This document shows, in pieces, positions 44,213 through 56,366 of a stretch of 56,366 bases of DNA. Location: contig JAXSOH010000001.1 in the NCBI GenBank assembly GCA_037925805.1, forward strand, positions 27,748-84,113. The letters run 5' to 3'. The DNA comes from Aquificaceae bacterium. Its GTDB lineage: Bacteria; Aquificota; Aquificia; Aquificales; Aquificaceae. Below the pieces are notes generated by a model. It was given only the letters and a program-made list of their open reading frames with translations, was not told the DNA's origin and made no database searches. How positions within the stretch are numbered: position 1 is the first letter of the stretch; the number at the start of each line of letters is the position of its first letter. The position numbers and the translations under genes are program-made.

Positions 44213-45286
44213 CTAAGCTCTTAGATAGCCTGTATTTTTTATAAGCACCCAGCCAAAGGTGAGGTTTTTGGAGCTTATCCTCCTCGTCTTTGGCTTTTCT
44301 TTTCTGCTTTGTGAAACAGAGGCATCATAAACCCTTTCAAAAAGCTCAGGGTCTTCCTTTTTGAAAACCGCCATAATGGTGGTGCTAAGATAGCCTTGGT
44401 GCTTTCCTATGCGTAGCAAAATACCCTCCTCCATCCTTCTTTTTATTTCCTGCAGATGTGTCTTTACCTCTGGCATATTCTTGAAAAATTCCATCTCCAA
44501 GTCCAAAACAAGGCTATAAAAGCTATTAGAAAGCTCCTTGAGCCTGTCCCAGCTGAGGTCCGAATGCTTGTAATTTAACTTTTCAACGCGTATCATTCTA
44601 TCAATCAAAGACCTCTCAATGAGGAGTTTACCCTCCAGCCTTGTCCCCACCTTTATAGCTTCGCAAGCGTAAAGCGATTTATCTGAACCTATCATCTTTG
44701 GCACTTCTACGCATAGGTCTCTTAGCTCAAAAAACAGGTCAGGGAAGGCTATAGCCTTAAAAAGGTCATACTTGGCATCCACATTTCCCACAGGATTGAA
44801 AAAGCTTTCTTCAAAGCCCTTACCCTTTGAGCCAAACTCTTCAAGCTCCCTCTTATTGTTAACCTTCTGTCTTAGCATATGCCTTATCCTATCTCTCAAT
44901 TCCTTATCCGCCAGTAAAAGACCACCCATATAGGCAGTCCTTAGAGCACCCTTTAACTCACTGCCGGGTATATAAGGCATGCCAAGAGACTTTATAAACA
45001 GCTCCACCTCATTAGTCTTTAGAGAACCAACTATCTCAATTCTATAGAGAGGATTTCCCACATCAATCCCTAACTCCCTTAGCCTAGAGAGGCTAAAGTC
45101 TCTGTTTTGCATTAAGATTCTAAGGTTTTGAAGGAAGGCGGGATTTTTCTCTAAAAGGTGAGCTATCAAGTGTTGATAGGGATAAACCTCAAGGAAGTTA
45201 TCTTTTATCGTATACTCCCACTTGGTAATCCTTTCTCCACTTCCTATATGCACTGGGCTTAGAACTTCCAAGCTAAGGTTTAACAT
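44213..45286 (-). CDS. csm5: Type III-A RAMP protein Csm5
   Basis: LSPVHIGSG, PYIPGSELKGALRTA, LRIG..G, PKTR, FGWV; start at 45286. Confidence 0.9.
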   Translation of the reverse strand: MLNLSLEVLSPVHIGSGERITKWEYTIKDNFLEVYPYQHLIAHLLEKNPAFLQNLRILMQNRDFSLSRLRELGIDVGNPLYRIEIVGSLKTNEVELFIKSLGMPYIPGSELKGALRTAYMGGLLLADKELRDRIRHMLRQKVNNKRELEEFGSKGKGFEESFFNPVGNVDAKYDLFKAIAFPDLFFELRDLCVEVPKMIGSDKSLYACEAIKVGTRLEGKLLIERSLIDRMIRVEKLNYKHSDLSWDRLKELSNSFYSLVLDLEMEFFKNMPEVKTHLQEIKRRMEEGILLRIGKHQGYLSTTIMAVFKKEDPELFERVYDASVSQSRKEKPKTRRISSKNLTFGWVLIKNTGYLRA

Positions 45287-46218
45287 GGCTTTCCACCTCT
45301 CAAGTATAGAGGAAAGGCATATCCATAGTGGTATAGGTTGTGAGAAATCTGTTTCAATTTTCCGTAGTAGCCTGAGCTGTCTCTTACCTTCATAACTGCA
45401 CCAGCCTTTATAAGGGGCATGGGCTTTTTCCACAAGAGGTTTCCATGTCTTCCAAAGTAGTTTTCCACCGCAGGTCTTCTCACTTCCACGTCGTAGTAGC
45501 TTTCTTGCAGGTCAACATTTTGTGAGTAGAAAAAGTCCGAGAGGCTATAGAAATATTCCCCTGCCTTTTCCGTACACTGTGAAAGCCACTCTGGAGTTTT
45601 TAAAAGGCTTACACTAAAAAGCCCCATACCAGTAGACTTGTTGCCACCCAAGGGCAAGAGGTTATATATGGCAGGCAGAAGCTTCTCTGGTTTTTCCTCA
45701 AATTCCCAACGGTTTATCTTTACCAAAAGACAAAACTCCCCAGTGGCAAATATGCTTTCAAAGAAAAGTTCTCCTCCCGTGGTGGTGCTTGTGAGCCTAT
45801 TTATGCTGGCATGAGGGACCAAAGCCTTTGCAAAAAAACTCTTCTCTTCTTGGAGAAGTTTCTCGTAGTCTATGGCATTTCCCATAAGAAAGTCCCTAAG
45901 GACCTCCTCAGACACAAAACTCAGAGACTTTAACTTTTTATACTTTCTGTATGCAGAAAATTCCCTATTATCTAAGCTCCTTAGGTCTATCTTTAAGCCA
46001 AGGGACGCAGGCTTTGGAAAGTATAGCCTTCCTCCTTCTCTGAAAAGGAGAGAGGAAAATATAACAGGTGGAGAGCTATTGTAGTCTTCTAAGAACCTCC
46101 TTAGCCTATCTTCTCCATACAAAAGCCTCAGACCCCAGCAAAAAGCTCCAAAGAAAGTATGACTGCTTGGTAAGGACTTAAGAAAGCCAAAAGGTTTAAA
46201 AAGAAGCGTTAAGAGCAT
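45280..46218 (-). CDS. csm4: Type III-A RAMP protein Csm4
   Basis: PSSHTFFGA, INRLT, LGGNKSTGMG, HYGYAFP; operon position. Confidence 0.88.
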   Translation of the reverse strand: MLLTLLFKPFGFLKSLPSSHTFFGAFCWGLRLLYGEDRLRRFLEDYNSSPPVIFSSLLFREGGRLYFPKPASLGLKIDLRSLDNREFSAYRKYKKLKSLSFVSEEVLRDFLMGNAIDYEKLLQEEKSFFAKALVPHASINRLTSTTTGGELFFESIFATGEFCLLVKINRWEFEEKPEKLLPAIYNLLPLGGNKSTGMGLFSVSLLKTPEWLSQCTEKAGEYFYSLSDFFYSQNVDLQESYYDVEVRRPAVENYFGRHGNLLWKKPMPLIKAGAVMKVRDSSGYYGKLKQISHNLYHYGYAFPLYLRGGKPC

Positions 46219-47027
46219 AGCTTAAGAAGATCTTCAGCACTTATTTCCTCAAGTTTTTTGCCTTCTATCCTCTTAGGCTCAGCCTTGCCAAGGTAAGCGG
46301 ATTCGGACTTGAACTCCACATTTAGTTTTTCAAACTTCACCCTTCCAGAACCCCTTGAACCATAACCACCAAGATAGTTATCCTCCAACATCCCCATGCC
46401 CCGTAAAAGCAAAGAGAGAAGTTTCTTGTCCTCTTCTTTGTATAAGTTAAAGACTATCCTACCCACAAAGACCGCACCCGCAGGCACTCTTTCCACCTTT
46501 CTGGGATTAGCCCTTGAGTTTATCCTGTTTATCTGGTTTTCTGTCTTTATCTCCGTATATATACTCTCACCCAGCTCCTTTTGTATCCTGTCAAGGGTAT
46601 TCTCCGTTGGGTATGCATCACAGAAGATGAGCCTTGGTGGTCCTGGTTGCTCTTGGAGAGGAAGACTTTCAAGGGTTTTGGCATTTCCAGTGCCAAAGAG
46701 TATGCATATACTACATTTTCCACAGTCGCAGGGAGAACCTGCAAGTTTTATATCTGTCCCTGCCTTCTTTATCATCTTCTCCACACTTCCAGTAGACCAC
46801 TCAAGGAGACTTCTTATCTTGCCCTTGAGAGAAGAGCCCGGTATGTAGGGAACACCCTTTGGGAGCTCTCTGCCAGAGGGATAAAAGGCTGGTATGCTTA
46901 TGTAGGTTTTTATCACAGGATTGTCAAGACCGCCTATGTCAAAGTTTTCCTTTGAACCCCCTATGCGAATACCAGTAAGAGCCTTCAGCTCATACTCAAA
47001 GACAAAAGAACCCAGAAACCTAAACAT
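46209..47027 (-). CDS. csm3: Type III-A backbone RNase Csm3
   Basis: TGIRIGG, IGGLDNPVIK (catalytic Asp), YIPGSSLKGKIRSLLE, ERVPAG, LGGYGSRGSG. Confidence 0.95.
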   Translation of the reverse strand: MFRFLGSFVFEYELKALTGIRIGGSKENFDIGGLDNPVIKTYISIPAFYPSGRELPKGVPYIPGSSLKGKIRSLLEWSTGSVEKMIKKAGTDIKLAGSPCDCGKCSICILFGTGNAKTLESLPLQEQPGPPRLIFCDAYPTENTLDRIQKELGESIYTEIKTENQINRINSRANPRKVERVPAGAVFVGRIVFNLYKEEDKKLLSLLLRGMGMLEDNYLGGYGSRGSGRVKFEKLNVEFKSESAYLGKAEPKRIEGKKLEEISAEDLLKLCS

Positions 47028-47039
47028 GGCTTAACCTCC

Positions 47040-47474
47040 CTATGATTCCTTTTTGGAATAGGCTACCATTGCCATAAAGAAGTCCGAAGCCTTGCGTAGG
47101 CTTTCTTCGGTAAAGTTCTTCTCAATGCTGTCAAGAACACTACGCACGAGGTTTCCAAAATCCTTCTTTATTACTCCCCTATTCTCCTGATACTGGGTTA
47201 TGGCATATAGTCTGTAGAGGTAATACTTTAGCTCTTCTTTTTTCTTGCCTTCCTGTAGTCTGTCGTAGATGTTTCTTATCTCTGAATAGAACCTCCTAAG
47301 CTGAACCCCTTTGAGCCCTAAGTTTTCCACTATCCTACTGGCATAGCCCTCTGGATGAAATATGTCTCTGTCATCCAATTTGGAAAGGTCTCCACCCAGG
47401 CCCTTTAATTTGTTTAGGAATTCAGACACATAACTATTAGACCCTTGACCTCCTCTATGCATGCTCTGGCTCAT
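47040..47474 (-). CDS. csm2: Type III-A small subunit Csm2
   Basis: QLRRFY, Y..NR, FF.AMVAY; lies between cas10 and csm3. Confidence 0.9.
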   Translation of the reverse strand: MSQSMHRGGQGSNSYVSEFLNKLKGLGGDLSKLDDRDIFHPEGYASRIVENLGLKGVQLRRFYSEIRNIYDRLQEGKKKEELKYYLYRLYAITQYQENRGVIKKDFGNLVRSVLDSIEKNFTEESLRKASDFFMAMVAYSKKES

Positions 47475-47503: not shown

Positions 47504-49774
47504 CTACTCCCTATCATTTTCTGACACACCCCTTGTTTTCATTATCACATATTTTGCCATAAAAAGTGCATTCCTCTTAACGGTATAGTCCTTATCTGTC
47601 TCTATAAGGGTTTTCACAAACTTTTCACGCTCTCCCCCTTTCACGTTTCTGTGAATCTGGTAATAGAAAAGTGGATAAAACTTCCACCATTTCTCCTTAC
47701 GGTTTTCTCTGAAGTATTTCATCAACATGTATATGCGATAAAAGGTTGACCTGCCTATGTATCCCTCTTTGATAAACTGCTCCAGTTTCTTTGAATTGTT
47801 AATGCCATCCTTTAGCTCCTCTTGGGTAAGGATTTCGTTAAGTATAGAAAAGTGAGGAAGATCCTCGGATTTCTCGCCTTCGGAAATTATTCTTGTTTTT
47901 TCCCTTTTTACACTTTTTTCCTCTACCTCCGCAAACTCTCCTGCAAAACGCACTGGCACTTCTGGTCTATCTATATGAAAGCCCACGGAGAAGTTCATAA
48001 TAGGGTTACAGGCGGTATATTCGTCAAAATCCTCCTTTAGCTCCAAAATCTTTTCCACAAGCTGGTCCCAAGGTCCTATCAAGAAAAAGTCATCTCCACC
48101 CGCATACAGGGTATATATGTCAGAGCCCTTGAGGAACTCGTTGAGATATCCAGAAAAGAAAAGGTCAAGACTTCTGCTCAAAGTGGCAAGCCTTGAGAGA
48201 GAATACTCCTTTATAGACTGGAATATAAGACCCAAAAAGTCCACATCACCCCTTGCAAAGGCTATCTTTTTGTCCCCTTTTGCCTTCTCAGAAAGGTTTT
48301 CAAAATCCAAGGTAGAGCCTTCTTCATTCTTTGGAACATAGTTGGCAAAAAAGAGAAAGCCATCCGCTCCCTTCTCAAGAAAGTCTGTATGGTTTATGAG
48401 ATAGACCTCCTCAAGGTCTTCCTCTGGCTCTTCTAACAGATAAACACCCCCTATGCCCTCAAGGTAAAAACCCCACCTATTTAACCACATATGCGTATCA
48501 AAGGCTATATACTTAGCCTTAGTGAGAGCGTTGCCAAGCTCAAGAAAGACTTCACACCATTTACAGACTTCCTTTCCTTCTTCTACCATTCCCCACATGC
48601 AAGAGGGACACATACCATCCCCCTTCCCATAAGCAAGCTCTTCAAAAACTTCCATAGTTAGGCTAAACTTTCTCTTCTTTTGCAGGCTTATCCTTTCGTG
48701 TAGCCTTTTCATGGTTTCCCTAAAACCCTCACCACTAAGACCCTCCTCCCTCGTATCAACCCAAGAAAGCACAAAGCCCAGCTTACCACCAAACTCCCTT
48801 ATAAAAGCCTCTTCTACCCTCTTGGCAAAACTCCTTAGCTTGTCTTCTATGCCCTCCTCGTAGCCAAAAAGTGCCAAAAACTTCCCTCCACCTGCGTATA
48901 TAAGATTACATAGAGGATATTCCAATTCTTTTAGCAATGCCCTTGCCACAAGATGAGGAAGCACCGAAAGGAAAAAGCTCCTACCCCTTAACCTCTTTGC
49001 CACACCCTTTATATTGGTAAGAGAAAAGAGAAACTCTTGAATTCCACTTATATCACCATCCACTAACAAAAACCTTTCCTTATTTGTGGAAAGTGCACAG
49101 GCTATGGCAGAGACCATCCTTGAGTGGTCAAAAAGGGATATGTCTGGATAGTGTCTTGTGCCTCTTTCCCTGTCATAGGTAGACGCAGGGACGCACCAAC
49201 AGTATTTGTAAAAGAGATGATAAACCTTTAGAAAAGCCTTGTGAAGGTCGGAAAAGTCTACCTTCTTTAACTCGGACTCAAATGCTTTGAGAATGTCCGC
49301 ATATTTATCTACAGGAGTGCCTTCCTTTGGAAATAGCACATCTTTAGTTAGCTCAAGCTTATTGAGTTCTATGTAGTATTCTTTGTCTAACTGTGAGTTA
49401 AAAAAGTTAACCTCAAGACCCAAAAAGATAGGTTTTAGCCTTTTTATGGCTTTATCGGAGATGTCTTCTTGTTCTTGACTTCTTTCTTTGCTTGAGTTTA
49501 TGTCCGCAACTTGGTATAGCTTTTGCTCTTGGTTCTTGGGCTTGTGATGAAAGGCAGAGTCAAGCACCTTTTGGTAATCGTCTGGGCTTAACTTGTTTTT
49601 TAATGCCCTCTCTATAAACTTATAAGACAGCTCCGCATGAGCGTAGCCAAAACCTTCCTTACCTTCTGCCTTTTCCCCCGCTCTGTCTAACAGCTTACCA
49701 ACATCATGAAAAAGACCCCCAAGTGCCAACAAAACCCTATACCTGTATTTATCCATAGCTCCCCTCACTAACAT
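47504..49774 (-). CDS. cas10: Cas10/Csm1 with HD nuclease and GGDD cyclase palm (start may be MDKY at 49756)
   Basis: LFHDVGK, DISLFDH, GDISGIQ, LRGRSF, CxxC..CxxC Zn finger, YAGGDDF. Confidence 0.96.
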   Translation of the reverse strand: MLVRGAMDKYRYRVLLALGGLFHDVGKLLDRAGEKAEGKEGFGYAHAELSYKFIERALKNKLSPDDYQKVLDSAFHHKPKNQEQKLYQVADINSSKERSQEQEDISDKAIKRLKPIFLGLEVNFFNSQLDKEYYIELNKLELTKDVLFPKEGTPVDKYADILKAFESELKKVDFSDLHKAFLKVYHLFYKYCWCVPASTYDRERGTRHYPDISLFDHSRMVSAIACALSTNKERFLLVDGDISGIQEFLFSLTNIKGVAKRLRGRSFFLSVLPHLVARALLKELEYPLCNLIYAGGGKFLALFGYEEGIEDKLRSFAKRVEEAFIREFGGKLGFVLSWVDTREEGLSGEGFRETMKRLHERISLQKKRKFSLTMEVFEELAYGKGDGMCPSCMWGMVEEGKEVCKWCEVFLELGNALTKAKYIAFDTHMWLNRWGFYLEGIGGVYLLEEPEEDLEEVYLINHTDFLEKGADGFLFFANYVPKNEEGSTLDFENLSEKAKGDKKIAFARGDVDFLGLIFQSIKEYSLSRLATLSRSLDLFFSGYLNEFLKGSDIYTLYAGGDDFFLIGPWDQLVEKILELKEDFDEYTACNPIMNFSVGFHIDRPEVPVRFAGEFAEVEEKSVKREKTRIISEGEKSEDLPHFSILNEILTQEELKDGINNSKKLEQFIKEGYIGRSTFYRIYMLMKYFRENRKEKWWKFYPLFYYQIHRNVKGGEREKFVKTLIETDKDYTVKRNALFMAKYVIMKTRGVSENDRE

Positions 49775-49848: not shown

Positions 49849-50271
49849 ATGAGGTCTTTGGCTTTTATCCTTCTATTGAGTTTCTTGCTTTCTTATCCTT
49901 TAGCTAAAGAAATTCCCTTCACTCTTGAAGATAGGGATAGGATTATAAGGCTTGAGGAAAACCAGAGAGAGGGTTTTAAAGCTCTAATACAAAGGATAGA
50001 TGATACAAACAAAAGGATAGATGATATAAACAAAAGGATAGATGACACGAACAAGAGGATAGATGACATGATAAGTATTATGCTCTGGGGTTTTGGTGTT
50101 TTGTTTGCTGGTATGATGAGCCTTATAGGTTTTGTGATATGGGATAGGAGAAGTGCACTTGCTCCAGCTATTAGGAAGACAAAGGAGCTTGAAGAAAGAG
50201 AGGAAAAGATTGAAAAGGCTCTCAAGAAACTCGCAGAAAAAAACCCAGAAGTAAAAGAAGCCCTAAAATAA
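49849..50271 (+). CDS. Hypothetical exported/membrane coiled-coil protein with RIDD(T/I)NK heptad repeats
   Basis: Signal peptide, heptad repeats, one internal TM, charged helical tail; TATAAT 7 nt before the ATG. Confidence 0.75.
   Translation: MRSLAFILLLSFLLSYPLAKEIPFTLEDRDRIIRLEENQREGFKALIQRIDDTNKRIDDINKRIDDTNKRIDDMISIMLWGFGVLFAGMMSLIGFVIWDRRSALAPAIRKTKELEEREEKIEKALKKLAEKNPEVKEALK
49993..50067 (+). repeat. 21-bp coding tandem repeat, about 3.5 copies
   Basis: AGGATAGATGA(T/C)A(C/T)(A/G)AACAA(A/G) units at 49993, 50014 and 50035, plus a partial unit at 50056. Confidence 0.9.
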
Positions 50272-50375: not shown

Positions 50376-50932
50376 GTCTCCATCCCTCACGGTGGGCTTA
50401 AAACAAGGACACTTTGTTGGCAAGGTTTTGGTGCCAACTATGTCTCCATCCCTCACGGTGGGCTTAAAACTGATATTACTACTTCCCATTATTCCTGTGT
50501 TCTTATTGTCTCCATCCCTCACGGTGGGCTTAAAACAATTGGCAAAAGCATACGAAGATGGCGAGCTTACGGGTCTCCATCCCTCACAGTGGGCTTAAAA
50601 CAGCATTCTCACAAACTGCTCGTATTGCTCATTTGCTGTCTCCATCCCTCACAGTGGGCTTAAAACTAAGTTCATAGTAAGTGGGGACCCAGCTTTGGTT
50701 CTGTCTCCATCCCTCACAGTGGGCTTAAAACACGAGGTAAGGACTAACTAAAGGCAAGGGGCTCGGGGTCTCCATCCCTCACAGTGGGCTTAAAACAATG
50801 CATGGAATGTGTGTGGGGTGTGGGTGATAGATAAGTCTCCATCCCTCACAGTGGGCTTAAAACTCCACGTATACGGGGGGCTGATCGAAGCAAGATTCAA
50901 AATGTCTCCATCCCTCACAGTGGGCTTAAAAC
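50376..50932 (-). CRISPR. CRISPR array: 9 repeats of 29 bp and 8 spacers of 36-40 bp; crRNA-sense repeat GTTTTAAGCCCAC(T/C)GTGAGGGATGGAGAC
   Basis: Plus-strand GTCTCCATCCCTCAC(G/A)GTGGGCTTAAAAC at 50376, 50442, 50508, 50573, 50638, 50703, 50768, 50835 and 50904. Minus orientation is supported by the ATGGAGAC 3' handle and by the promoter on the right. Confidence 0.98.
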
Positions 50933-50952
50933 CCCAAAGCCACATATAAAGA

Positions 50953-51304: not shown

Positions 51305-52030
51305 ATGCCTATTAAACTGGCTCTTAGCTTTAAGGCTGAGGCAAACTTGGAGGTTTCTAATGACCTTATGCATGCCTTTGTCTTTTCCTTGTTTCCACAA
51401 GAGGTAGCAGAAAAGGTTCACAAGAGAGAGGAAAAGCCTTTTAGCCTTAGAGGTTGGAACTTTACAGAGAGGGGTTTATTGCTTAGGATTTCTCTTTTGG
51501 AAGACCAGCTTTTTCCAGCGTTGGTTAGTCATTTTTACCTTTCTAAAAATGGCTTTAGGCTAAAGGATGTGGAGCTACAGCCTGTTGTGCCAAGTGGTCT
51601 AAGAGAAGAGGAGTCCATATCTTACCAAGAACTCTTGGAGCTTGAAGCCTGCGAGCACTACTCGGTGGACTTTATAAAACCTACCACCTTTAGAAGAGGT
51701 CGTTGGGACTATCCCCTTCCAGACCCACCCGCATTGTTTAGCAGTCTCTACAAAAAATGGAAGAGCCATCACCCTTTTCCTTTGGAAGAGGACAAGCTCC
51801 TACATCAGGTCTATTCCAAAGTTTACATCTTAGCACACAAAATAAGGGTTGAGACGGTGGAGCTTTCCTTTGGAAAACTTAGAGGTTTTGTGGGAAATGT
51901 GGTCTTTGGTGTCAATGACAAGGAGCTCTCAAGGTTAGTTCATGCCTTGCTTAAGTTTGGCGAGTTTTCTGGAGTTGGAAGAAAAAGTGCCATGGGTATG
52001 GGAGTTATGGTCTTGCGTAAAGAAACCTAA
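51305..52030 (+). CDS. cas6: CRISPR precursor processing endoribonuclease Cas6
   Basis: H...KPFS, PTTF, PLPDP, GFVG, C-terminal G-rich loop GVGRKSAMGMG. Confidence 0.93.
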   Translation: MPIKLALSFKAEANLEVSNDLMHAFVFSLFPQEVAEKVHKREEKPFSLRGWNFTERGLLLRISLLEDQLFPALVSHFYLSKNGFRLKDVELQPVVPSGLREEESISYQELLELEACEHYSVDFIKPTTFRRGRWDYPLPDPPALFSSLYKKWKSHHPFPLEEDKLLHQVYSKVYILAHKIRVETVELSFGKLRGFVGNVVFGVNDKELSRLVHALLKFGEFSGVGRKSAMGMGVMVLRKET

Positions 52031-52440
52031 GAGTCCCAGCTGGAAGAACCCCAGCTATTCCAGGAAGAGCTACCACTGTCCCAGTCATTGGAGGAATTCC
52101 ACCAATTGTCGTTGCTTGAGTCCCAATGGTTGTTAAAGACATGATACATAGGGCATGATGGGTCCCACATGGCACGGGAAATATCGCAGTCATCGTGGCT
52201 GTCCCACCTTCTTGTGGTGTCGTTGTCAAGGAATGAGTGGCTGTCCCGAAGTTTTCTGTCTTCATCCTCAAGAGGGCTATGAGAGTCTAAGGAGCTCGTG
52301 TTTGCTGGGCTGGTGTTTTCCCACTGCTCTGAAGGGTTAGAAGTCCCAGGGTGCACGTTAGAAGAGAAGGCTTCGTCGTTGGCATCTTTTATCTTCCAGA
52401 GGAGAAAGAGGACTGCCAGCAGTAAAAGTATCCATTCCAT
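52027..52440 (-). CDS. Hypothetical protein: N-terminal membrane anchor plus low-complexity S/D/N/W-rich tail
   Basis: Strong SD AGGAGGTGA; MEWILLLLAVLFLLWK anchor; repeated W-[DN]-S; stop overlaps the cas6 stop. Confidence 0.75.
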   Translation of the reverse strand: MEWILLLLAVLFLLWKIKDANDEAFSSNVHPGTSNPSEQWENTSPANTSSLDSHSPLEDEDRKLRDSHSFLDNDTTRRWDSHDDCDISRAMWDPSCPMYHVFNNHWDSSNDNWWNSSNDWDSGSSSWNSWGSSSWDS

Positions 52441-52545: not shown

Positions 52546-54012
52546 CTACCCTCCCATAGTTATAATGTATCCTCCCTCTCGCAAACTTCTTAGAAACTCA
52601 AGGTCAAGCACCCGCTCGTAGGTTCTGTCTTTGCTACTGTAGTTGTATATGTATCCCTTGTCGTAGTGTCCAAAGGCTACACCAAAAAGATATGCCAAAG
52701 CGACAGGGCAGGAAAAGAAAAAGTGAATTGCCTTATAGGCTTTCTTACCCTTTACCTCTTGCACCGCAGAGGAGACTTCTTGAGCTATCCTCTTGAAAGT
52801 GCTCGGCTCAAGGTTTCCCCTATAGGACTCTGTGGTAAGGAGCAAAAGGTCCGCAAGAATGCCCTTGCTCTCTAAGAAATGCTCCACGTCCGCAGTGGGA
52901 TTGTGGTGGGAGAAAAAGAGGACTACCGCAAGGTCTTCTCCACCTTCTTTTAGTTCACTTTTCACAAATTGGTAGTCCCTTGTGTGCTCCTTTATCTCCC
53001 TTGTGTTTTGTAGGTCAATGGGAAAGTATTTTCTCTCACTGCTATGGTAATGGTAGAAAACAGAGGGTCTTGTGTGTCCGTAGAGAATTCCCAAGGCAAA
53101 GGAAAGGCTCGCAGGTCCGTTTACCGCAATATGAGCTTTTAGCCTACCTATTAGGGTATAGTCAAGGATGCTTATGAGCCCAAAAAACCTTTTTGCAGTT
53201 TCCTGCCATCCGATACCGCTTAGCTGACTTGTTTGTATGACAAGTTTTGCTGGGTCTATGCGATGGATATTTTTTAAGTTTAGTAGGTTTTCCTCCTTAT
53301 GGAAAAACTCCTCAAGCCTTAGGTGGTCAATGGAAACCGCCACAGGAACTTCCACAATATTTGCACTTAGCCAATTCAAAAGGTCATCCACCTTAGGAAG
53401 ATGAAAGGGCATAGCCAAGTGCATATTGAACCTTTCACACACCTCAGACTTTTTATCCAAAGAGTCCACCTTCACTATGCTACCATCCTTTCTAACTCCA
53501 CCGCTCCAACAGAGGTTTGGTGGTAGCCTTTTCTTTTCCGCATCCATACACAAAGCCAAGGTCAAAGAAAGTTGAAAGCTATTTCCCACAAACTCACTGT
53601 CAAAGATAACACTAACAGACCCAGACACAAAGCCTTTGGAACGCAGATATTCCACCACTGGAGTGATATACCTTTTCTTTTCTGGTAGGTTGCAAAAGAC
53701 CTCTGGTGTATCCTTTATTGCCAGACCCCTTATTAGCTTGCCATCCCTTTCAGAGACCGCAGGAAACTCAAACTCCACATAGGGATTTTCCAAAAGTGCC
53801 TTTGCGACCGCCTTTTTTATACCCAAAGCCTTGGCAAGTTTTTCCTCATCAAAATACCTTTCAGAAAGGCGTAGATACTTTACCAAAGCAAAATGCACCC
53901 CAGGGCTTAGATAATCCCACTGCCTTATAAGGTCTACAAGGACTTCTTCCAAGTCTCCCCTGTAGAGAAACTCTATAAGGTCTTTTTCCTTGAAAAGGCT
54001 AAAGTTCCACAA
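52546..54012 (-). CDS. calpL: CalpL-like cyclic-oligoadenylate-activated Lon protease-SAVED fusion
   Basis: Lon-type dyad: GNS145F...K188, 43 residues apart, with the SGGV.KDG.I.KV segment. C-terminal SAVED motifs (IHFFFSCPVALAYLFG, YIYNY). TTG start with GGAGG SD; type III context. Confidence 0.88.
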   Translation of the reverse strand: MWNFSLFKEKDLIEFLYRGDLEEVLVDLIRQWDYLSPGVHFALVKYLRLSERYFDEEKLAKALGIKKAVAKALLENPYVEFEFPAVSERDGKLIRGLAIKDTPEVFCNLPEKKRYITPVVEYLRSKGFVSGSVSVIFDSEFVGNSFQLSLTLALCMDAEKKRLPPNLCWSGGVRKDGSIVKVDSLDKKSEVCERFNMHLAMPFHLPKVDDLLNWLSANIVEVPVAVSIDHLRLEEFFHKEENLLNLKNIHRIDPAKLVIQTSQLSGIGWQETAKRFFGLISILDYTLIGRLKAHIAVNGPASLSFALGILYGHTRPSVFYHYHSSERKYFPIDLQNTREIKEHTRDYQFVKSELKEGGEDLAVVLFFSHHNPTADVEHFLESKGILADLLLLTTESYRGNLEPSTFKRIAQEVSSAVQEVKGKKAYKAIHFFFSCPVALAYLFGVAFGHYDKGYIYNYSSKDRTYERVLDLEFLRSLREGGYIITMGG

Positions 54013-54772
54013 CCTTTAATTCCTCCGGAATGTTTATTCCAAAGAAGTTTCCAAGAATCTCCAACCTTGGAGACTCCACCTCACCCTCAAAGACCACCAC
54101 AGAACCCAAAAGCACCCTAACAACCTTACCCACAAACTCTATAGGCAAGTATAGCCTTAGCAAACCCTCCTCCAAAACCACAAAGAAATTCCCTACTTTG
54201 AAGTATCTATTATCCGCTGCGAGAGCATAAGTGCGTATCTCTTCAAGAGCCTTTTCTGTATCTGGTGAAAGCCTTATAACTTGCGCCTCTTCTCTTTCTG
54301 CAAGCTCCGCCTGAGCCAACAATGAATACATAGTCCACTTTGCCCAACGCTTAGAATTGAGTTTGATGAACCTTCTCGTGGCAAACTTTAGCTCCTTTTC
54401 CTTTGACAGGTATTCTTCTATTTTGCTTAGCTCCTCTTCAGGCAGTTTACCTATGACCTGACTGTAGTTTTCTATAAGCTCCCTTCTTAAATAATCCCAT
54501 ACTGGAACCACACCCAGTTTAAGCCCACGAGACCTTAGCTCGTAAATAGGCGTGGAGTTAGGTAAAACCTGCAAATAGGAAGTGAGAGGAACTGTTTTGT
54601 ATAGACCCTCTTGGACTTCTTGCAAAATAACAAACCTCTCTACAGGCACAGACCACAACTCCCTTATCTGCCCCACTTTCGGCTCCTTTTTATGAGGAAC
54701 TTCCAGAAGCTCATTGCTCCCTTCCTTCAAGTTCTTCTCGTATATCTCCAAAAGCTCCAATTCCAAACTCAT
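53999..54772 (-). CDS. calpT: CalpT-like anti-sigma factor / protease substrate
   Basis: Lies between the sigma factor and Lon-SAVED genes; MazF-fold-like N-terminus (PKVGQI...VPLTSY) and small beta-rich C-terminal domain. Confidence 0.8.
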   Translation of the reverse strand: MSLELELLEIYEKNLKEGSNELLEVPHKKEPKVGQIRELWSVPVERFVILQEVQEGLYKTVPLTSYLQVLPNSTPIYELRSRGLKLGVVPVWDYLRRELIENYSQVIGKLPEEELSKIEEYLSKEKELKFATRRFIKLNSKRWAKWTMYSLLAQAELAEREEAQVIRLSPDTEKALEEIRTYALAADNRYFKVGNFFVVLEEGLLRLYLPIEFVGKVVRVLLGSVVVFEGEVESPRLEILGNFFGINIPEELKVVEL

Positions 54773-55434
54773 GGCACGTCTCCTCTTTCATTACATATAT
54801 AACCCCTTTTTTGACAAACCTCTGACAAAAACCTTTCCACCATCGCCCTTATCTCCTCTGGAGAGGCATCACCTAAGATATCCTTCAGTTTACCCTTCCG
54901 TAGCCTTTCCCACCTCTTATATAGGTTATCCTTAGAAATATCCCTCAGTTCTATCTCCGAGTTATATAGATACTTATAAAAGTAATAGCATAGCACTACC
55001 ATATCTCCGTCTTTGAGATTTTTCATAAGTGTCTCAAAAAGCGTGCTACCCTCCACCTCCGCAAAGTGATGTCTCGTATCCCTGAGGTTATCTTCATAAA
55101 CTACAGGCTTTGCATCCTCCTCTTCAAAAACCTGTTCTTGAAGGCTGTAAACCTCTATCTTTTCACCGTTTATAATGTCTACTAAGAAGTTTCTTATGAG
55201 GGTTTTCAAGTAATGCAGGTTTATATACTCTAACCTCTGCAGATAGTCTTTGTTGTTTATTAGCCTAAGCCTCAGCTCAGATAGGACTTCCTCCTCGTAG
55301 TCATCTCCGAATTTTCTCCTTAGCAAGGCGTCCATATACTGGCTCAATAAGGACCTTATTAGTTTTTTCATATAGTTCTCTTCTTTTGCACCGCCATATA
55401 AAAAGCCAGAGATAAGTTGTTTGTAGTCCTTCAT
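54769..55434 (-). CDS. calpS: CalpS-like ECF sigma factor
   Basis: Region 2-like YLKTLIRNFLVD and region 4-like ISKDNLYKRWERLR; ATGA-coupled to calpT. Confidence 0.78.
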   Translation of the reverse strand: MKDYKQLISGFLYGGAKEENYMKKLIRSLLSQYMDALLRRKFGDDYEEEVLSELRLRLINNKDYLQRLEYINLHYLKTLIRNFLVDIINGEKIEVYSLQEQVFEEEDAKPVVYEDNLRDTRHHFAEVEGSTLFETLMKNLKDGDMVVLCYYFYKYLYNSEIELRDISKDNLYKRWERLRKGKLKDILGDASPEEIRAMVERFLSEVCQKRGYICNERGDVP

Positions 55435-55883
55435 CTAAAATACTCCCTTCTTAAGCTATCAAGAAACTCAAGGTCTCTACACGTGCCACAAAATTCGTAT
55501 TTAAACTCTCTAAACCTATCCTTATGCACCATATAGGCAAGCACCTCTTGTCTGTTTCTGTCTCTTAAGATAAAGCACTCTACATCAAGGCTTTGACATG
55601 CTTTATTTTTACCCCTATAGCAAAGACTGAGGTCTACCCTGCGTTTTGAGTAGGTTTTTGTAGTTAGAAAGACAATAAGGTAAAAGTCCCTTTCAAGCCT
55701 TCCTATAAAAGGTCTTCTCCTTCTCGCCTTGTATACTCCAAGGTCTAACCTAAGAAGGTCTTCAAGCCTTGATAGTGTCTCATCGGTAAAAACTCCCAAG
55801 AACCTCTCCCCAGAAGCCACAATTTTCTCTTCGTCGCCTAACTTTTTCTCAAAGAGTTTCTCAAAACCCTTGAGCTTTTCCAT
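55431..55883 (-). CDS. Hypothetical Cys-containing protein with a PemK/MazF-like motif
   Basis: RRRRPFIG...LIVFLTTK resembles the PemK/MazF K-x-R-P...V-P-h-T-T motif; ATGA-coupled to calpS; TATAAT upstream. Confidence 0.55.
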   Translation of the reverse strand: MEKLKGFEKLFEKKLGDEEKIVASGERFLGVFTDETLSRLEDLLRLDLGVYKARRRRPFIGRLERDFYLIVFLTTKTYSKRRVDLSLCYRGKNKACQSLDVECFILRDRNRQEVLAYMVHKDRFREFKYEFCGTCRDLEFLDSLRREYFR

Positions 55884-55902: not shown

Positions 55903-56310
55903 TTAGTCCTCTTTGACTGCTACCATATCAAAGATAACTAACTGCTTTTTGTTGTTTACGTGGCACATGCGAATATCATTGTCAAAGGTCAAAGAAGAGG
56001 CTACCACGCTAAAGGTTTTAGTCCCAGCGGTTATGTCTATTAAGATTTCCTTTTCCTTGTAGCCCTGTGCCTTGAGACTTTCTATTGCTTTGTTGAAAGT
56101 TCTTTGTAGGTTCAACATATCCTCATAGTCCACTGCCTCACTAAATTCAAAAATGTGGTGTTCTATCCCTGCATTTGCCCGCATATATTCAACGAACTTC
56201 TCAGAATGTTCTGCACCTTCTGGAGAAGGAATTACTACAACTTTCTTTAACTCAGCACCTTGTTCCAAGCACTTTTTTATCAAAAATTCCTGCGGGAGTG
56301 TTTCATCCAT
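55903..56310 (-). CDS. CARF-domain protein (start uncertain; frame stays open to the window edge)
   Basis: VVVIPS, VDYED, ILIDITAGTK CARF motif II, followed by a helix and the CHV strand. Confidence 0.78.
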   Translation of the reverse strand: MDETLPQEFLIKKCLEQGAELKKVVVIPSPEGAEHSEKFVEYMRANAGIEHHIFEFSEAVDYEDMLNLQRTFNKAIESLKAQGYKEKEILIDITAGTKTFSVVASSLTFDNDIRMCHVNNKKQLVIFDMVAVKED

Positions 56311-56340
56311 TGTGTAAAAATAAAGTAAGGAGGTGTTAAC

Positions 56341-56366
56341 ATGAAACAGCCAAGCAAGGAGAAAAT
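56341..56366 (+). CDS. Possible start of a divergent gene running off the window (MKQPSKEK...)
   Basis: Near-perfect SD TAAGGAGGT 6 nt before the ATG; only 8 codons visible. Confidence 0.4.

What the first reader, a model, noticed from the sequence alone, without database searches (positions are those of the whole stretch)
54215..54229. Cryptic ssrA-like degron (YALAA) at the predicted CalpT cleavage site
Seen: residues 182-186 of the 257-aa CalpT-like protein read YALAA, in a linker before the small C-terminal domain. Established: the E. coli ssrA tag ends in YALAA; ClpX recognises a free C-terminal LAA; RseA is destroyed after cleavage exposes VAA; CalpL cuts CalpT into a large N-terminal and a small C-terminal piece. 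Inference: cutting after A186 (186 + 71 aa) would expose a ClpXP degron on the sigma-bound fragment, which would explain how the sigma factor is finally released.
Basis: partly seen in the sequence, partly recalled or inferred. Interest (0 to 1): 0.85.

Follow-up and report, generated by a model that had tools for sequence, protein, structure and literature searches.

The report
Known CRISPR protease cut-site degron
Five residues (YALAA) in the anti-sigma protein CalpT of a CRISPR defence operon line up with the published CalpL cut site, so a cut there likely exposes a destruction tag that frees the sigma factor (an already published mechanism), while CalpT copies in mobile-element-like DNA lack this site and may act as decoys.

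Summary
Observation confirmed: YALAA is residues 182-186 of CalpT (54215-54229, minus strand), in a predicted coil between a MazF-like and a CalpT10-like domain, in an intact calpS-calpT-calpL operon beside type III-A CRISPR genes. A186 aligns with the mapped CalpL P1 alanine; that column is Ala in 47 of 47 calpL-adjacent homologs (39 end AA). The host has clpPX with intact ssrA-reading loops, and its tmRNA tag ends LALAA.

ClpXP itself was not tested in that text. Exact YALAA is not the family rule (8 of 47).

The newer result is the control group. All 10 CalpT homologs found without calpL/calpS lack the site. They arose about five times, are under purifying selection, and mostly sit in prophage- or ICE-like DNA. 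One is predicted to bind this CalpS (0.89, best control 0.00): candidate uncleavable anti-CRISPR decoys. A MazF-fold gene precedes calpS in 44 of 47 operons. Earlier scan notes report analogous LAA sites in non-CRISPR membrane-Lon cassettes on other DNA, none on this CalpT.

The parts
54215..54229 (-). YALAA, CalpT residues 182-186: predicted P5-P1 of the CalpL site and cryptic C-degron; predicted scissile bond A186|D187 between bases 54215 and 54214
   Evidence: papers
53999..54772 (-). calpT, 257 aa anti-sigma: MazF-like N-domain (about 1-160), helix 170-177, coil 178-189, CalpT10-like beta domain 190-257
   Evidence: family profile hits PDB 8b0u_D CalpT10 at E 3.4e-8; Foldseek rank 1 is 8b0u_C (E 1.6e-3, TM 0.74 on target), then MazF chains; model
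52546..54012 (-). calpL, 488 aa Lon-SAVED protease; predicted catalytic dyad S145/K188; SAVED domain 292-470
   Evidence: PDB CalpL 7qda/8b0r E about 2e-31 over residues 32-466; Pfam SAVED E 4e-25; dyad read from the alignment
54769..55434 (-). calpS, 221 aa, predicted ECF-like sigma factor
   Evidence: conserved directly upstream of calpT across Aquificota loci; direct sigma signal weak: 1 of 38 homologs hits Sigma70_r2 (E 2.7e-5), profile hits a sigma-H structure only at E 0.79
55431..55883 (-). conserved 150-aa fourth gene overlapping the calpS start; predicted MazF/PemK-like fold, invariant R57-P58 and Cys residues
   Evidence: present upstream of calpS in 44 of 47 scorable loci; alignment; model pLDDT 88.6; top fold hits MazF/PemK, Z 5.9, rmsd 3.0, 95 aligned
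47504..49774 (-). cas10 (Csm1) with HD and GGDD cyclase motifs, the predicted cA4 source; csm-like genes follow at 44213-47474
   Evidence: Pfam Cas10-Cmr2_palm2, Csm1_B and HD; GGDD at 559; ORF list
50376..50933 (.). CRISPR array, 9 repeats
51305..52030 (+). cas6
   Evidence: Pfam CRISPR_Cas6 E 3.5e-20

Best explanation
YALAA sits in the coil between the two domains of CalpT and aligns with the mapped CalpL cut site, so cA4-activated CalpL likely cuts A186|D187, and the exposed ssrA-like tail likely sends the sigma-bound N-terminal piece to ClpXP, freeing CalpS. Step by step: (1) Cas10 makes cA4 (inferred from the GGDD motif and SAVED family). (2) CalpL filaments cut CalpT after A186 (site inferred by alignment to two mapped homologs). 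(3) CalpT(1-186) stays on CalpS (published for homologs; the predicted interface here uses residues 1-116 of a 70% identical homolog, far from the tail). (4) The free 9-residue tail ending YALAA-COOH is read by the ClpX pore loops, and the fragment is unfolded and degraded (inferred; YALAA is sufficient for E. coli ClpXP). (5) CalpS binds RNA polymerase (published for a homolog). The motif is one sequence doing two jobs: protease site and degron.
For: A homolog whose linker reads the same as the published SsCalpT site (L077, LRHVA|STSQK) aligns with YALAA|D, putting P1 at A186 (paper section). The first residue of the crystallised CalpT10 product falls right after LAA in homolog P0070. CCaCalpT is cut LAA|A by HPLC-MS, and A204D blocks degron function. 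In 47 non-redundant calpL-adjacent CalpTs: P1 Ala 47, AA 39, LAA 28, P5 in L/F/Y/W 33 (background 22%), P4 in L/A/R 28 (background 21%), and 15 match the whole E. coli screen consensus [LFYW][LAR]LAA (consensus from PMC10862746). P1' is unconstrained (10 residue types), as expected if selection acts on the new C-terminus. The site is absent from all 10 homologs found without calpL/calpS. The host has adjacent clpP and clpX, and ClpX keeps GYVG, ITRDVS and RKH, the residues that read ssrA in PMC7652416. The host tmRNA tag ends ELALAA. Complex prediction of a CalpT N-domain homolog with this CalpS scored 0.89 against a best control of 0.00 (mark reached by 116 of 157 solved and 2 of 215 mismatched pairs; run agreement at least 70%, partner pLDDT at least 84).
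Against: No cut or degradation was measured on this protein. The spacer from P1 to the first beta strand is 2 residues shorter than in CalpT10, so an ungapped count would put the cut at L184|A185; only motif anchoring picks A186, and an aligner tends to stack alanines. P5-P2 conservation could reflect CalpL specificity rather than ClpX. 8 of 47 end in VA or SA (HVA, AVA, LVA, SVA, LSA), including the one with the SsCalpT-type linker, so AA is not required family-wide. The published degron work was done in E. coli without a clpX knockout in the text I saw. The host also has Lon, FtsH, a ClpA/C-like ATPase and a 454-aa ClpX-related ATPase (HslU by my recall). No SspB was found, in a genome 83% complete. 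The homologs are related, so the counts are not independent.
Confidence: 0.8

Rival explanations
1. Same cut and same degron, but the main degrader in the host is another ATP-dependent protease (ClpA/C-ClpP, Lon or FtsH), or several act redundantly.
For: ssrA-tagged proteins are also degraded by ClpAP, Lon and FtsH (PMC10862746 passage). The host encodes Lon and FtsH above family cut-off and an 812-aa ClpA/C-like ATPase below the ClpA cut-off. The CalpT paper names only 'cellular proteases'.
Against: A minimal YALAA tag is a ClpXP substrate in vitro (KM about 8 uM), and rescue by it is lost in a clpA clpX double mutant. The host ClpX keeps the ssrA-reading loops. The P5/P3 preferences of the family match ClpX determinants.
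Confidence: 0.1
2. LAA is conserved only as the CalpL recognition sequence; the ssrA likeness is a by-product of Lon-type small-P1 specificity, and CalpS is released by other means in this lineage.
For: CalpL needs Ala or Gly at P1. Only P1 is invariant, and 8 of 47 end VA/SA. Loss of the motif in orphans is explained equally by loss of the protease.
Against: For a homolog, cleavage alone did not release CalpS, and A204D on the already-cut fragment blocked release. LVA ends are also ClpX degrons. An exposed YALAA would be degraded whatever selected it.
Confidence: 0.06
3. CalpL cuts one to three residues earlier (after A185 or A183), leaving a weaker or different tail.
For: The spacer to the beta domain is 9 residues here against 11 in CalpT10. 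Three alanines lie within four residues.
Against: The A186 column is Ala in 47 of 47, the A185 column in 39 and the A183 column in under half. Both mapped homologs are cut after the residue that aligns with A186. Spacer length varies from 9 to 11 or more across the family.
Confidence: 0.04

Closest known systems
CalpL-CalpT-CalpS of Candidatus Cloacimonas acidaminovorans (10.1101/2024.05.08.593097; abstract, passages, sections 5 and 14 read)
   Same: Type III-A context, SAVED-Lon protease, two-domain CalpT, cut after LAA in an unstructured linker, LAA-ended C-degron of about 9 residues, explicit comparison with ssrA and RseA, A-to-D test.
   Different: Tail here is EIRTYALAA rather than PEDTLQLAA and P1' is Asp rather than Ala; CalpL similarity is limited to the SAVED part in my search (9eyi, E 1e-17); I did not align CCaCalpT itself.
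CalpL-CalpT-CalpS of Sulfurihydrogenibium sp. YO3AOP1 (10.1101/2021.12.06.471393 section 5 and passages; 10.1101/2024.05.08.593092 passages; PDB 7qda, 8b0r, 8b0u)
   Same: Same phylum and gene order; CalpL homologous over 32-466; CalpT C-domain matches CalpT10; mapped P1 Ala aligns with A186; ClpXP release is stated as the assumed last step.
   Different: Its new C-terminus is RHVA, not LAA, so this CalpT is closer to a canonical ssrA degron; spacer to the C-domain is 2 residues shorter here.
ssrA (tmRNA) tag and RseA-sigmaE (PMC7652416 and PMC10862746 passages; RseA as cited)
   Same: C-terminal hydrophobic-x-L-A-A read by ClpX pore-1, pore-2 and RKH loops; proteolysis-exposed degron on an anti-sigma.
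   Different: Trigger is a soluble cA4-gated protease rather than DegS/RseP (recalled); anti-sigma fold is MazF-like; no SspB found in this genome.
AcrIII-2, a viral SAVED domain taken from CalpL (10.1101/2025.07.01.662501, passages)
   Same: Precedent that Aquificota viruses capture a Calp component as a counter-defence; relevant to the orphan CalpT copies.
   Different: It destroys cA4; the orphan CalpTs would act downstream by holding the sigma factor. The passages I saw do not mention viral CalpT.

Membership tests
CalpT (CalpL-CalpT-CalpS) | Encoded between calpS and a SAVED-Lon calpL in a type III CRISPR locus | tested here: met
CalpT (CalpL-CalpT-CalpS) | MazF-like N-domain plus small beta C-domain (CalpT10/DUF2080-like) | tested here: met
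   profile to 8b0u_D E 3.4e-8; Foldseek top hits 8b0u_C then MazF chains, individual E-values above 0.001
CalpT (CalpL-CalpT-CalpS) | Conserved P1 alanine in the inter-domain linker | tested here: met
   A186 aligns with mapped P1; 47 of 47
CalpT (CalpL-CalpT-CalpS) | Partner CalpL has an intact Ser-Lys dyad and SAVED domain; Cas10 has a cyclase motif | tested here: met
   S145/K188, SAVED 292-470, GGDD at 559
CalpT (CalpL-CalpT-CalpS) | N-terminal piece binds CalpS | tested here: inconclusive
   predicted only, and with a 70% identical 162-aa homolog rather than the window protein: 0.89 against best control 0.00
CalpT (CalpL-CalpT-CalpS) | CalpS is an ECF-like sigma factor | tested here: inconclusive
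   homology and position fit; direct sigma hits weak
CalpT (CalpL-CalpT-CalpS) | Cleaved by CalpL only with cA4 | not testable with these tools
   needs biochemistry
ClpXP C-motif-1 (ssrA-like) degron | Sequence hydrophobic-x-L-A-A | tested here: met
   YALAA equals the minimal E. coli tag and fits the screen consensus; 4 of 5 identical to the host tag end LALAA
ClpXP C-motif-1 (ssrA-like) degron | Unstructured tail of at least 5 residues beyond the folded domain | tested here: met
   predicted coil 178-186; GFP-yalaa is degraded and GFP-laa is not
ClpXP C-motif-1 (ssrA-like) degron | Free alpha-carboxylate at the last Ala (needs the cut at A186) | not testable with these tools
   inferred from alignment only
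ClpXP C-motif-1 (ssrA-like) degron | Host has ClpXP with ssrA-reading loops | tested here: met
ClpXP C-motif-1 (ssrA-like) degron | Degraded by ClpXP and stabilised by A-to-D | not testable with these tools
   A-to-D shown for the CCa homolog in E. coli, not for this protein; ClpXP not singled out there

The most novel reading that the evidence does not exclude
The LAA site is the switch that mobile elements delete. Prophages and ICE/plasmid-like elements of Aquificota have captured calpT at least five times, kept the CalpS-binding domain under purifying selection and removed the cut site and degron (by a stop at about 160-190 aa or by losing the motif). The result is an uncleavable, non-degradable anti-sigma that traps CalpS: a new class of anti-CRISPR, the natural counterpart of the published A204D mutant. 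In addition, the Aquificota operon has a fourth, MazF-fold member that may be controlled by the same cascade.
Probability: 0.5. Interest if true: 0.72.

Novelty: new member of a known kind. Interest (0 to 1): 0.36.

Why it matters
The finding as written is a clean new example of a published mechanism, so by itself it changes little. It adds a family-wide view (cut-site column invariant, tail resembling the ClpX consensus and the host's own tmRNA tag) and a CalpT whose tail is exactly the standard ClpXP substrate, convenient for the direct ClpXP test that the text I read lacks. The larger value is the negative control. CalpT copies outside the operon lack precisely this site and sit in mobile-element-like DNA. 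If they hold CalpS, they are anti-CRISPR proteins acting on the last step of the cascade, and evidence that CalpS release matters to invaders in nature, where the CalpS regulon is still unknown (recalled).

Tried and rejected
Single-sequence searches of CalpT found nothing useful in the PDB or Pfam (only a spurious KdpA hit below cut-off); a close-homolog profile gave CalpT10 only at E 0.41, and the wider profile was needed. ARAGORN missed the host tmRNA; Rfam found it and I read the tag by translation; my pattern failed on 3 of 19 tmRNA loci. No CalpT relative was found in the viral contig scan (two exact patterns from close homologs only) or in annotated phages, so the mobile-element context rests on integrated or binned DNA. 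Capture of the motif from tmRNA DNA was considered: synonymous codons vary freely among xALAA homologs, so nothing supports it. The fourth gene has no Pfam family, the Atlas could not take it, and its fold Z-scores are under 8, so nuclease activity is not shown. The Nature 2023 CalpL paper is not held and bioRxiv supplements are closed; their alignments or a later journal version may already hold a ClpXP test or family logo. Literature searches for viral or orphan CalpT and for a fourth gene listed nothing on either; the library misses most subscription papers. Scan notes near this place and by sequence were empty.

Full report
1. Observation. The 15 bases 54215-54229, minus strand, encode YALAA, residues 182-186 of the 257-aa ORF at 53999-54772. 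It is the only Ala-Ala in the protein. A cut after A186 gives 186 and 71 residues, 21.8 and 8.1 kDa, close to the 23.0 + 8.7 kDa reported for SsCalpT. The AlphaFold2 model (36-sequence alignment, mean pLDDT 91.4) places 178-189 in coil between helix 170-177 and the beta domain that starts at 190; 181-190 is the least confident block, 64.

2. Setting. On the minus strand the order is a 150-aa ORF, calpS, calpT, calpL, all overlapping; then cas6 on the plus strand, a 9-repeat CRISPR array, cas10 and csm-like genes. CalpL matches the solved SsCalpL over residues 32-466 (E about 2e-31), has a SAVED domain and keeps the Ser-Lys dyad positions S145/K188. Cas10 has GGDD. A profile of 36 CalpT homologs hits the crystallised cleavage product CalpT10 at E 3.4e-8. 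The fold search ranks CalpT10 first, then MazF chains, each with E above 0.001. CalpS is assigned by position and homology; its direct sigma signal is weak (1 of 38 homologs hits Sigma70_r2; sigma-H at E 0.79). Named close relatives are Aquificaceae.

3. Where the cut falls. Two homologs are mapped. SsCalpT is cut VLRHVA|ST, with P1 Ala required (10.1101/2021.12.06.471393, section 5 and passages). CCaCalpT is cut LAA|A by HPLC-MS (10.1101/2024.05.08.593097, section 5). A phylum search (56 of 178 genomes with a match) returned a homolog, L077, whose linker reads LRHVA|STSQK, as published; in the joint alignment it lines up with YALAA|D. Separately, the first residue of CalpT10 falls just after LAA in homolog P0070. 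Against this, the distance from P1 to the first strand is 9 residues here and 11 in CalpT10, so an ungapped count would give L184|A185; the spacer varies across the family. A186|D187 is therefore inferred, not shown.

4. Conservation. Alignment-light test: AA occurs in the 20 residues before the C-domain in 24 of 36 family members (LAA 18, A-S/T 6, none 6), against 2 AA in 8826 residues elsewhere; genomic context of those 36 is mostly unknown. Context-aware test: among 47 calpL-adjacent CalpTs under 90% identity, P1 is Ala in 47, ends are AA 39, VA 6, SA 2, LAA 28; P5 is L/F/Y/W in 33 (background 22%) and P4 is L/A/R in 28 (background 21%); exact YALAA 8, LALAA 3; P1' takes ten residue types. 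Rows dropped before that count: nine duplicate loci, one contig-edge fragment lacking the region, four calpS-adjacent genes cut by contig ends before the site, and the broken operon L068. The sequences are related, so these are not independent trials.

5. Is it a degron, and for which protease. YALAA alone rescues a toxin fusion in wild-type but not clpA clpX E. coli, is degraded by ClpXP with KM about 8 uM, and YALAD is not; the screen consensus is [L/F/Y/W]-[L/A/R]-L-A-A, and LVA ends also work (PMC10862746, passages). Fifteen of 47 CalpT tails fit that consensus in full. GFP-yalaa is degraded and GFP-laa is too short; ClpX reads the tag with Y153/V154, T199/V202 and R228/H230 (PMC7652416, passages). 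The host has adjacent clpP and clpX, and its ClpX keeps GYVG, ITRDVS and RKH. Its tmRNA tag ends ELALAA, as in all 12 tags read from the genus, host included. SspB was not found (genome 83% complete). Lon, FtsH and a ClpA/C-like ATPase are also present, so ClpXP is the likeliest degrader but not the only candidate.

6. Already published. The CCa paper states that cleavage exposes an LAA-ending C-degron, that cleavage alone does not free CalpS, that A204D on the fragment restores growth, and that the tail destabilises GFP; it draws the ssrA and RseA parallels itself (abstract, passages, sections 5 and 14). It says 'cellular proteases'; all four ClpX mentions in the main text are analogies. [quoted passage not shown] I could not see the Nature 2023 paper, the journal version of the CCa paper, or bioRxiv supplements.

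7. The control group. Ten homologs have neither calpL nor calpS in the DNA held (L029, L033-L036, L067, L069, L072, L076, L093), and none has the site. Seven end at a stop codon before it (six whole genes of 162-190 aa and one 5'-cut fragment, L036); three keep the C-domain but have lost the motif (L033, L034, L067). Limits: L033 has about 110 bases downstream and L034 runs off its contig, though in both the upstream gene is not calpS; L072 lies on a 3.7-kb contig. On an N-domain tree of 8 orphans and 33 operon copies, the label needs 5 changes, all forced by well-supported branches, with orphans nested among operon copies (the tool warns of long branches meeting near the root). dN/dS is 0.05-0.23 in the five orphan-orphan pairs, so these are not decaying fragments. 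Context: L069 lies in a prophage (CI-like repressor, RecT, helicase, terminase, portal, major head); L076 is near an integrase, ParM-like actin and methyltransferases; L093 near ParM-like actin, a lytic transglycosylase and helicases; L067 near ParM-like actin and transposase-like ORFs; L029 near a phiEco32-like amidoligase, with similar upstream genes in L033-L035; L036 and L072 have no diagnostic annotation. Three of the five genomes with an orphan from the phylum search also carry a calp operon (G068, G083, G085; two look damaged), and two (G054, G120) have only the orphan. The 162-aa orphan of L029 was predicted to bind this window's CalpS at 0.89, best control 0.00; that mark was reached by 116 of 157 solved and 2 of 215 mismatched pairs, roughly applicable because my own alignments were used; run agreement at least 70%, partner pLDDT at least 84. 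The interface uses orphan residues 1-116 and CalpS 29-111. My PDB searches found no CalpT-CalpS complex, so memory of a solved pair is unlikely, but a close cousin of a true partner can pass. Inference: these are uncleavable decoy anti-sigmas, equivalent to the A204D mutant. Rivals: they regulate an element's own sigma factor (a sigma-70-type gene lies about 7 kb from the L067 orphan) or use the MazF-like fold for something else. No relatives were found in viral contigs or annotated phages. Searches listed no paper on such copies; AcrIII-2 is a precedent for viral capture of a Calp part (10.1101/2025.07.01.662501, passages). PMC11229360 (passages) and 10.1101/2024.07.17.603943 (passages) added nothing on this.

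8. Fourth gene. The 150-aa ORF overlapping the calpS start is present in 44 of 47 scorable operons, is tandem-duplicated in some, has invariant R57, P58, C88 and C135, and models at pLDDT 88.6. Its best fold matches are MazF/PemK and type III TA toxins (top Z 5.9, rmsd 3.0, 95 aligned). Z under 8 is modest and activity is untested.

9. Verdict. Real feature; correct and most likely functional; a new member of a known kind. Confidence 0.8 for cut at A186 plus ClpXP-led release. Interest 0.36: about 0.2 for the finding as written, raised by the degron-less mobile copies, whose decoy reading I put at 0.5 probability and 0.72 interest if true. Earlier scan notes describe LAA sites in anti-sigmas of non-CRISPR membrane-Lon cassettes in other genomes; I did not test them and they did not change the reading.

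Noticed in passing
L029:5085-5570, L033:912-1664, L034:1565-2245, L035:646-1137, L036:1-141, L067:3965-4723, L069:3989-4483, L072:2329-2832, L076:2995-3489, L093:2914-3483: Ten CalpT homologs outside calp operons, all lacking the cut site/degron; about five independent origins, dN/dS 0.05-0.23, mostly prophage/ICE-like surroundings; one predicted to bind CalpS. Candidate decoy anti-sigma anti-CRISPRs.
   Followed up: yes
window 55431-55883 (-): Conserved fourth gene of the Aquificota calp operon (44 of 47), MazF/PemK-like predicted fold, invariant RP motif and cysteines; no Pfam family.
   Followed up: partly
window 56294-56366 and 55903-56293 (-): The window and contig end in the terminus of a repeated element (more than 50 matches in the genome; about 250 bp with terminal inverted repeats at one inspected copy; IS256-like by my recall), which appears to interrupt a CARF-domain ORF upstream of the operon.
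   Followed up: partly
L038:837-1501; L065/L103; L068: Damaged calp operons in relatives: calpS split into two frames (L038), calpT fused in frame to calpL with loss of the junction (L065), and calpS plus a truncated calpT without calpL (L068). Two of these genomes also carry an orphan CalpT.
   Followed up: no
L032:1129-1899 versus window 53999-54772: A relative's CalpT is identical to the window protein from about residue 133 on but much more divergent before it (83% overall), while neighbours are 91-99% identical: possible recombination swapping the CalpS-binding domain.
   Followed up: no
window 52027-52440 (+): 137-aa ORF between cas6 and calpL with an N-terminal hydrophobic segment and a Ser/Trp/Asp-rich low-complexity tail; also present in L032.
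   Followed up: no
window 49849-50271 (+): Small ORF between cas10 and the array with a signal-like N-terminus, 21-nt tandem repeats (RIDD heptads) and a hydrophobic segment.
   Followed up: no
G000 genome-wide; L083, L084, L087: One relative (G035) carries three calp operons with divergent CalpT linkers that all keep xALAA|A.
   Followed up: no
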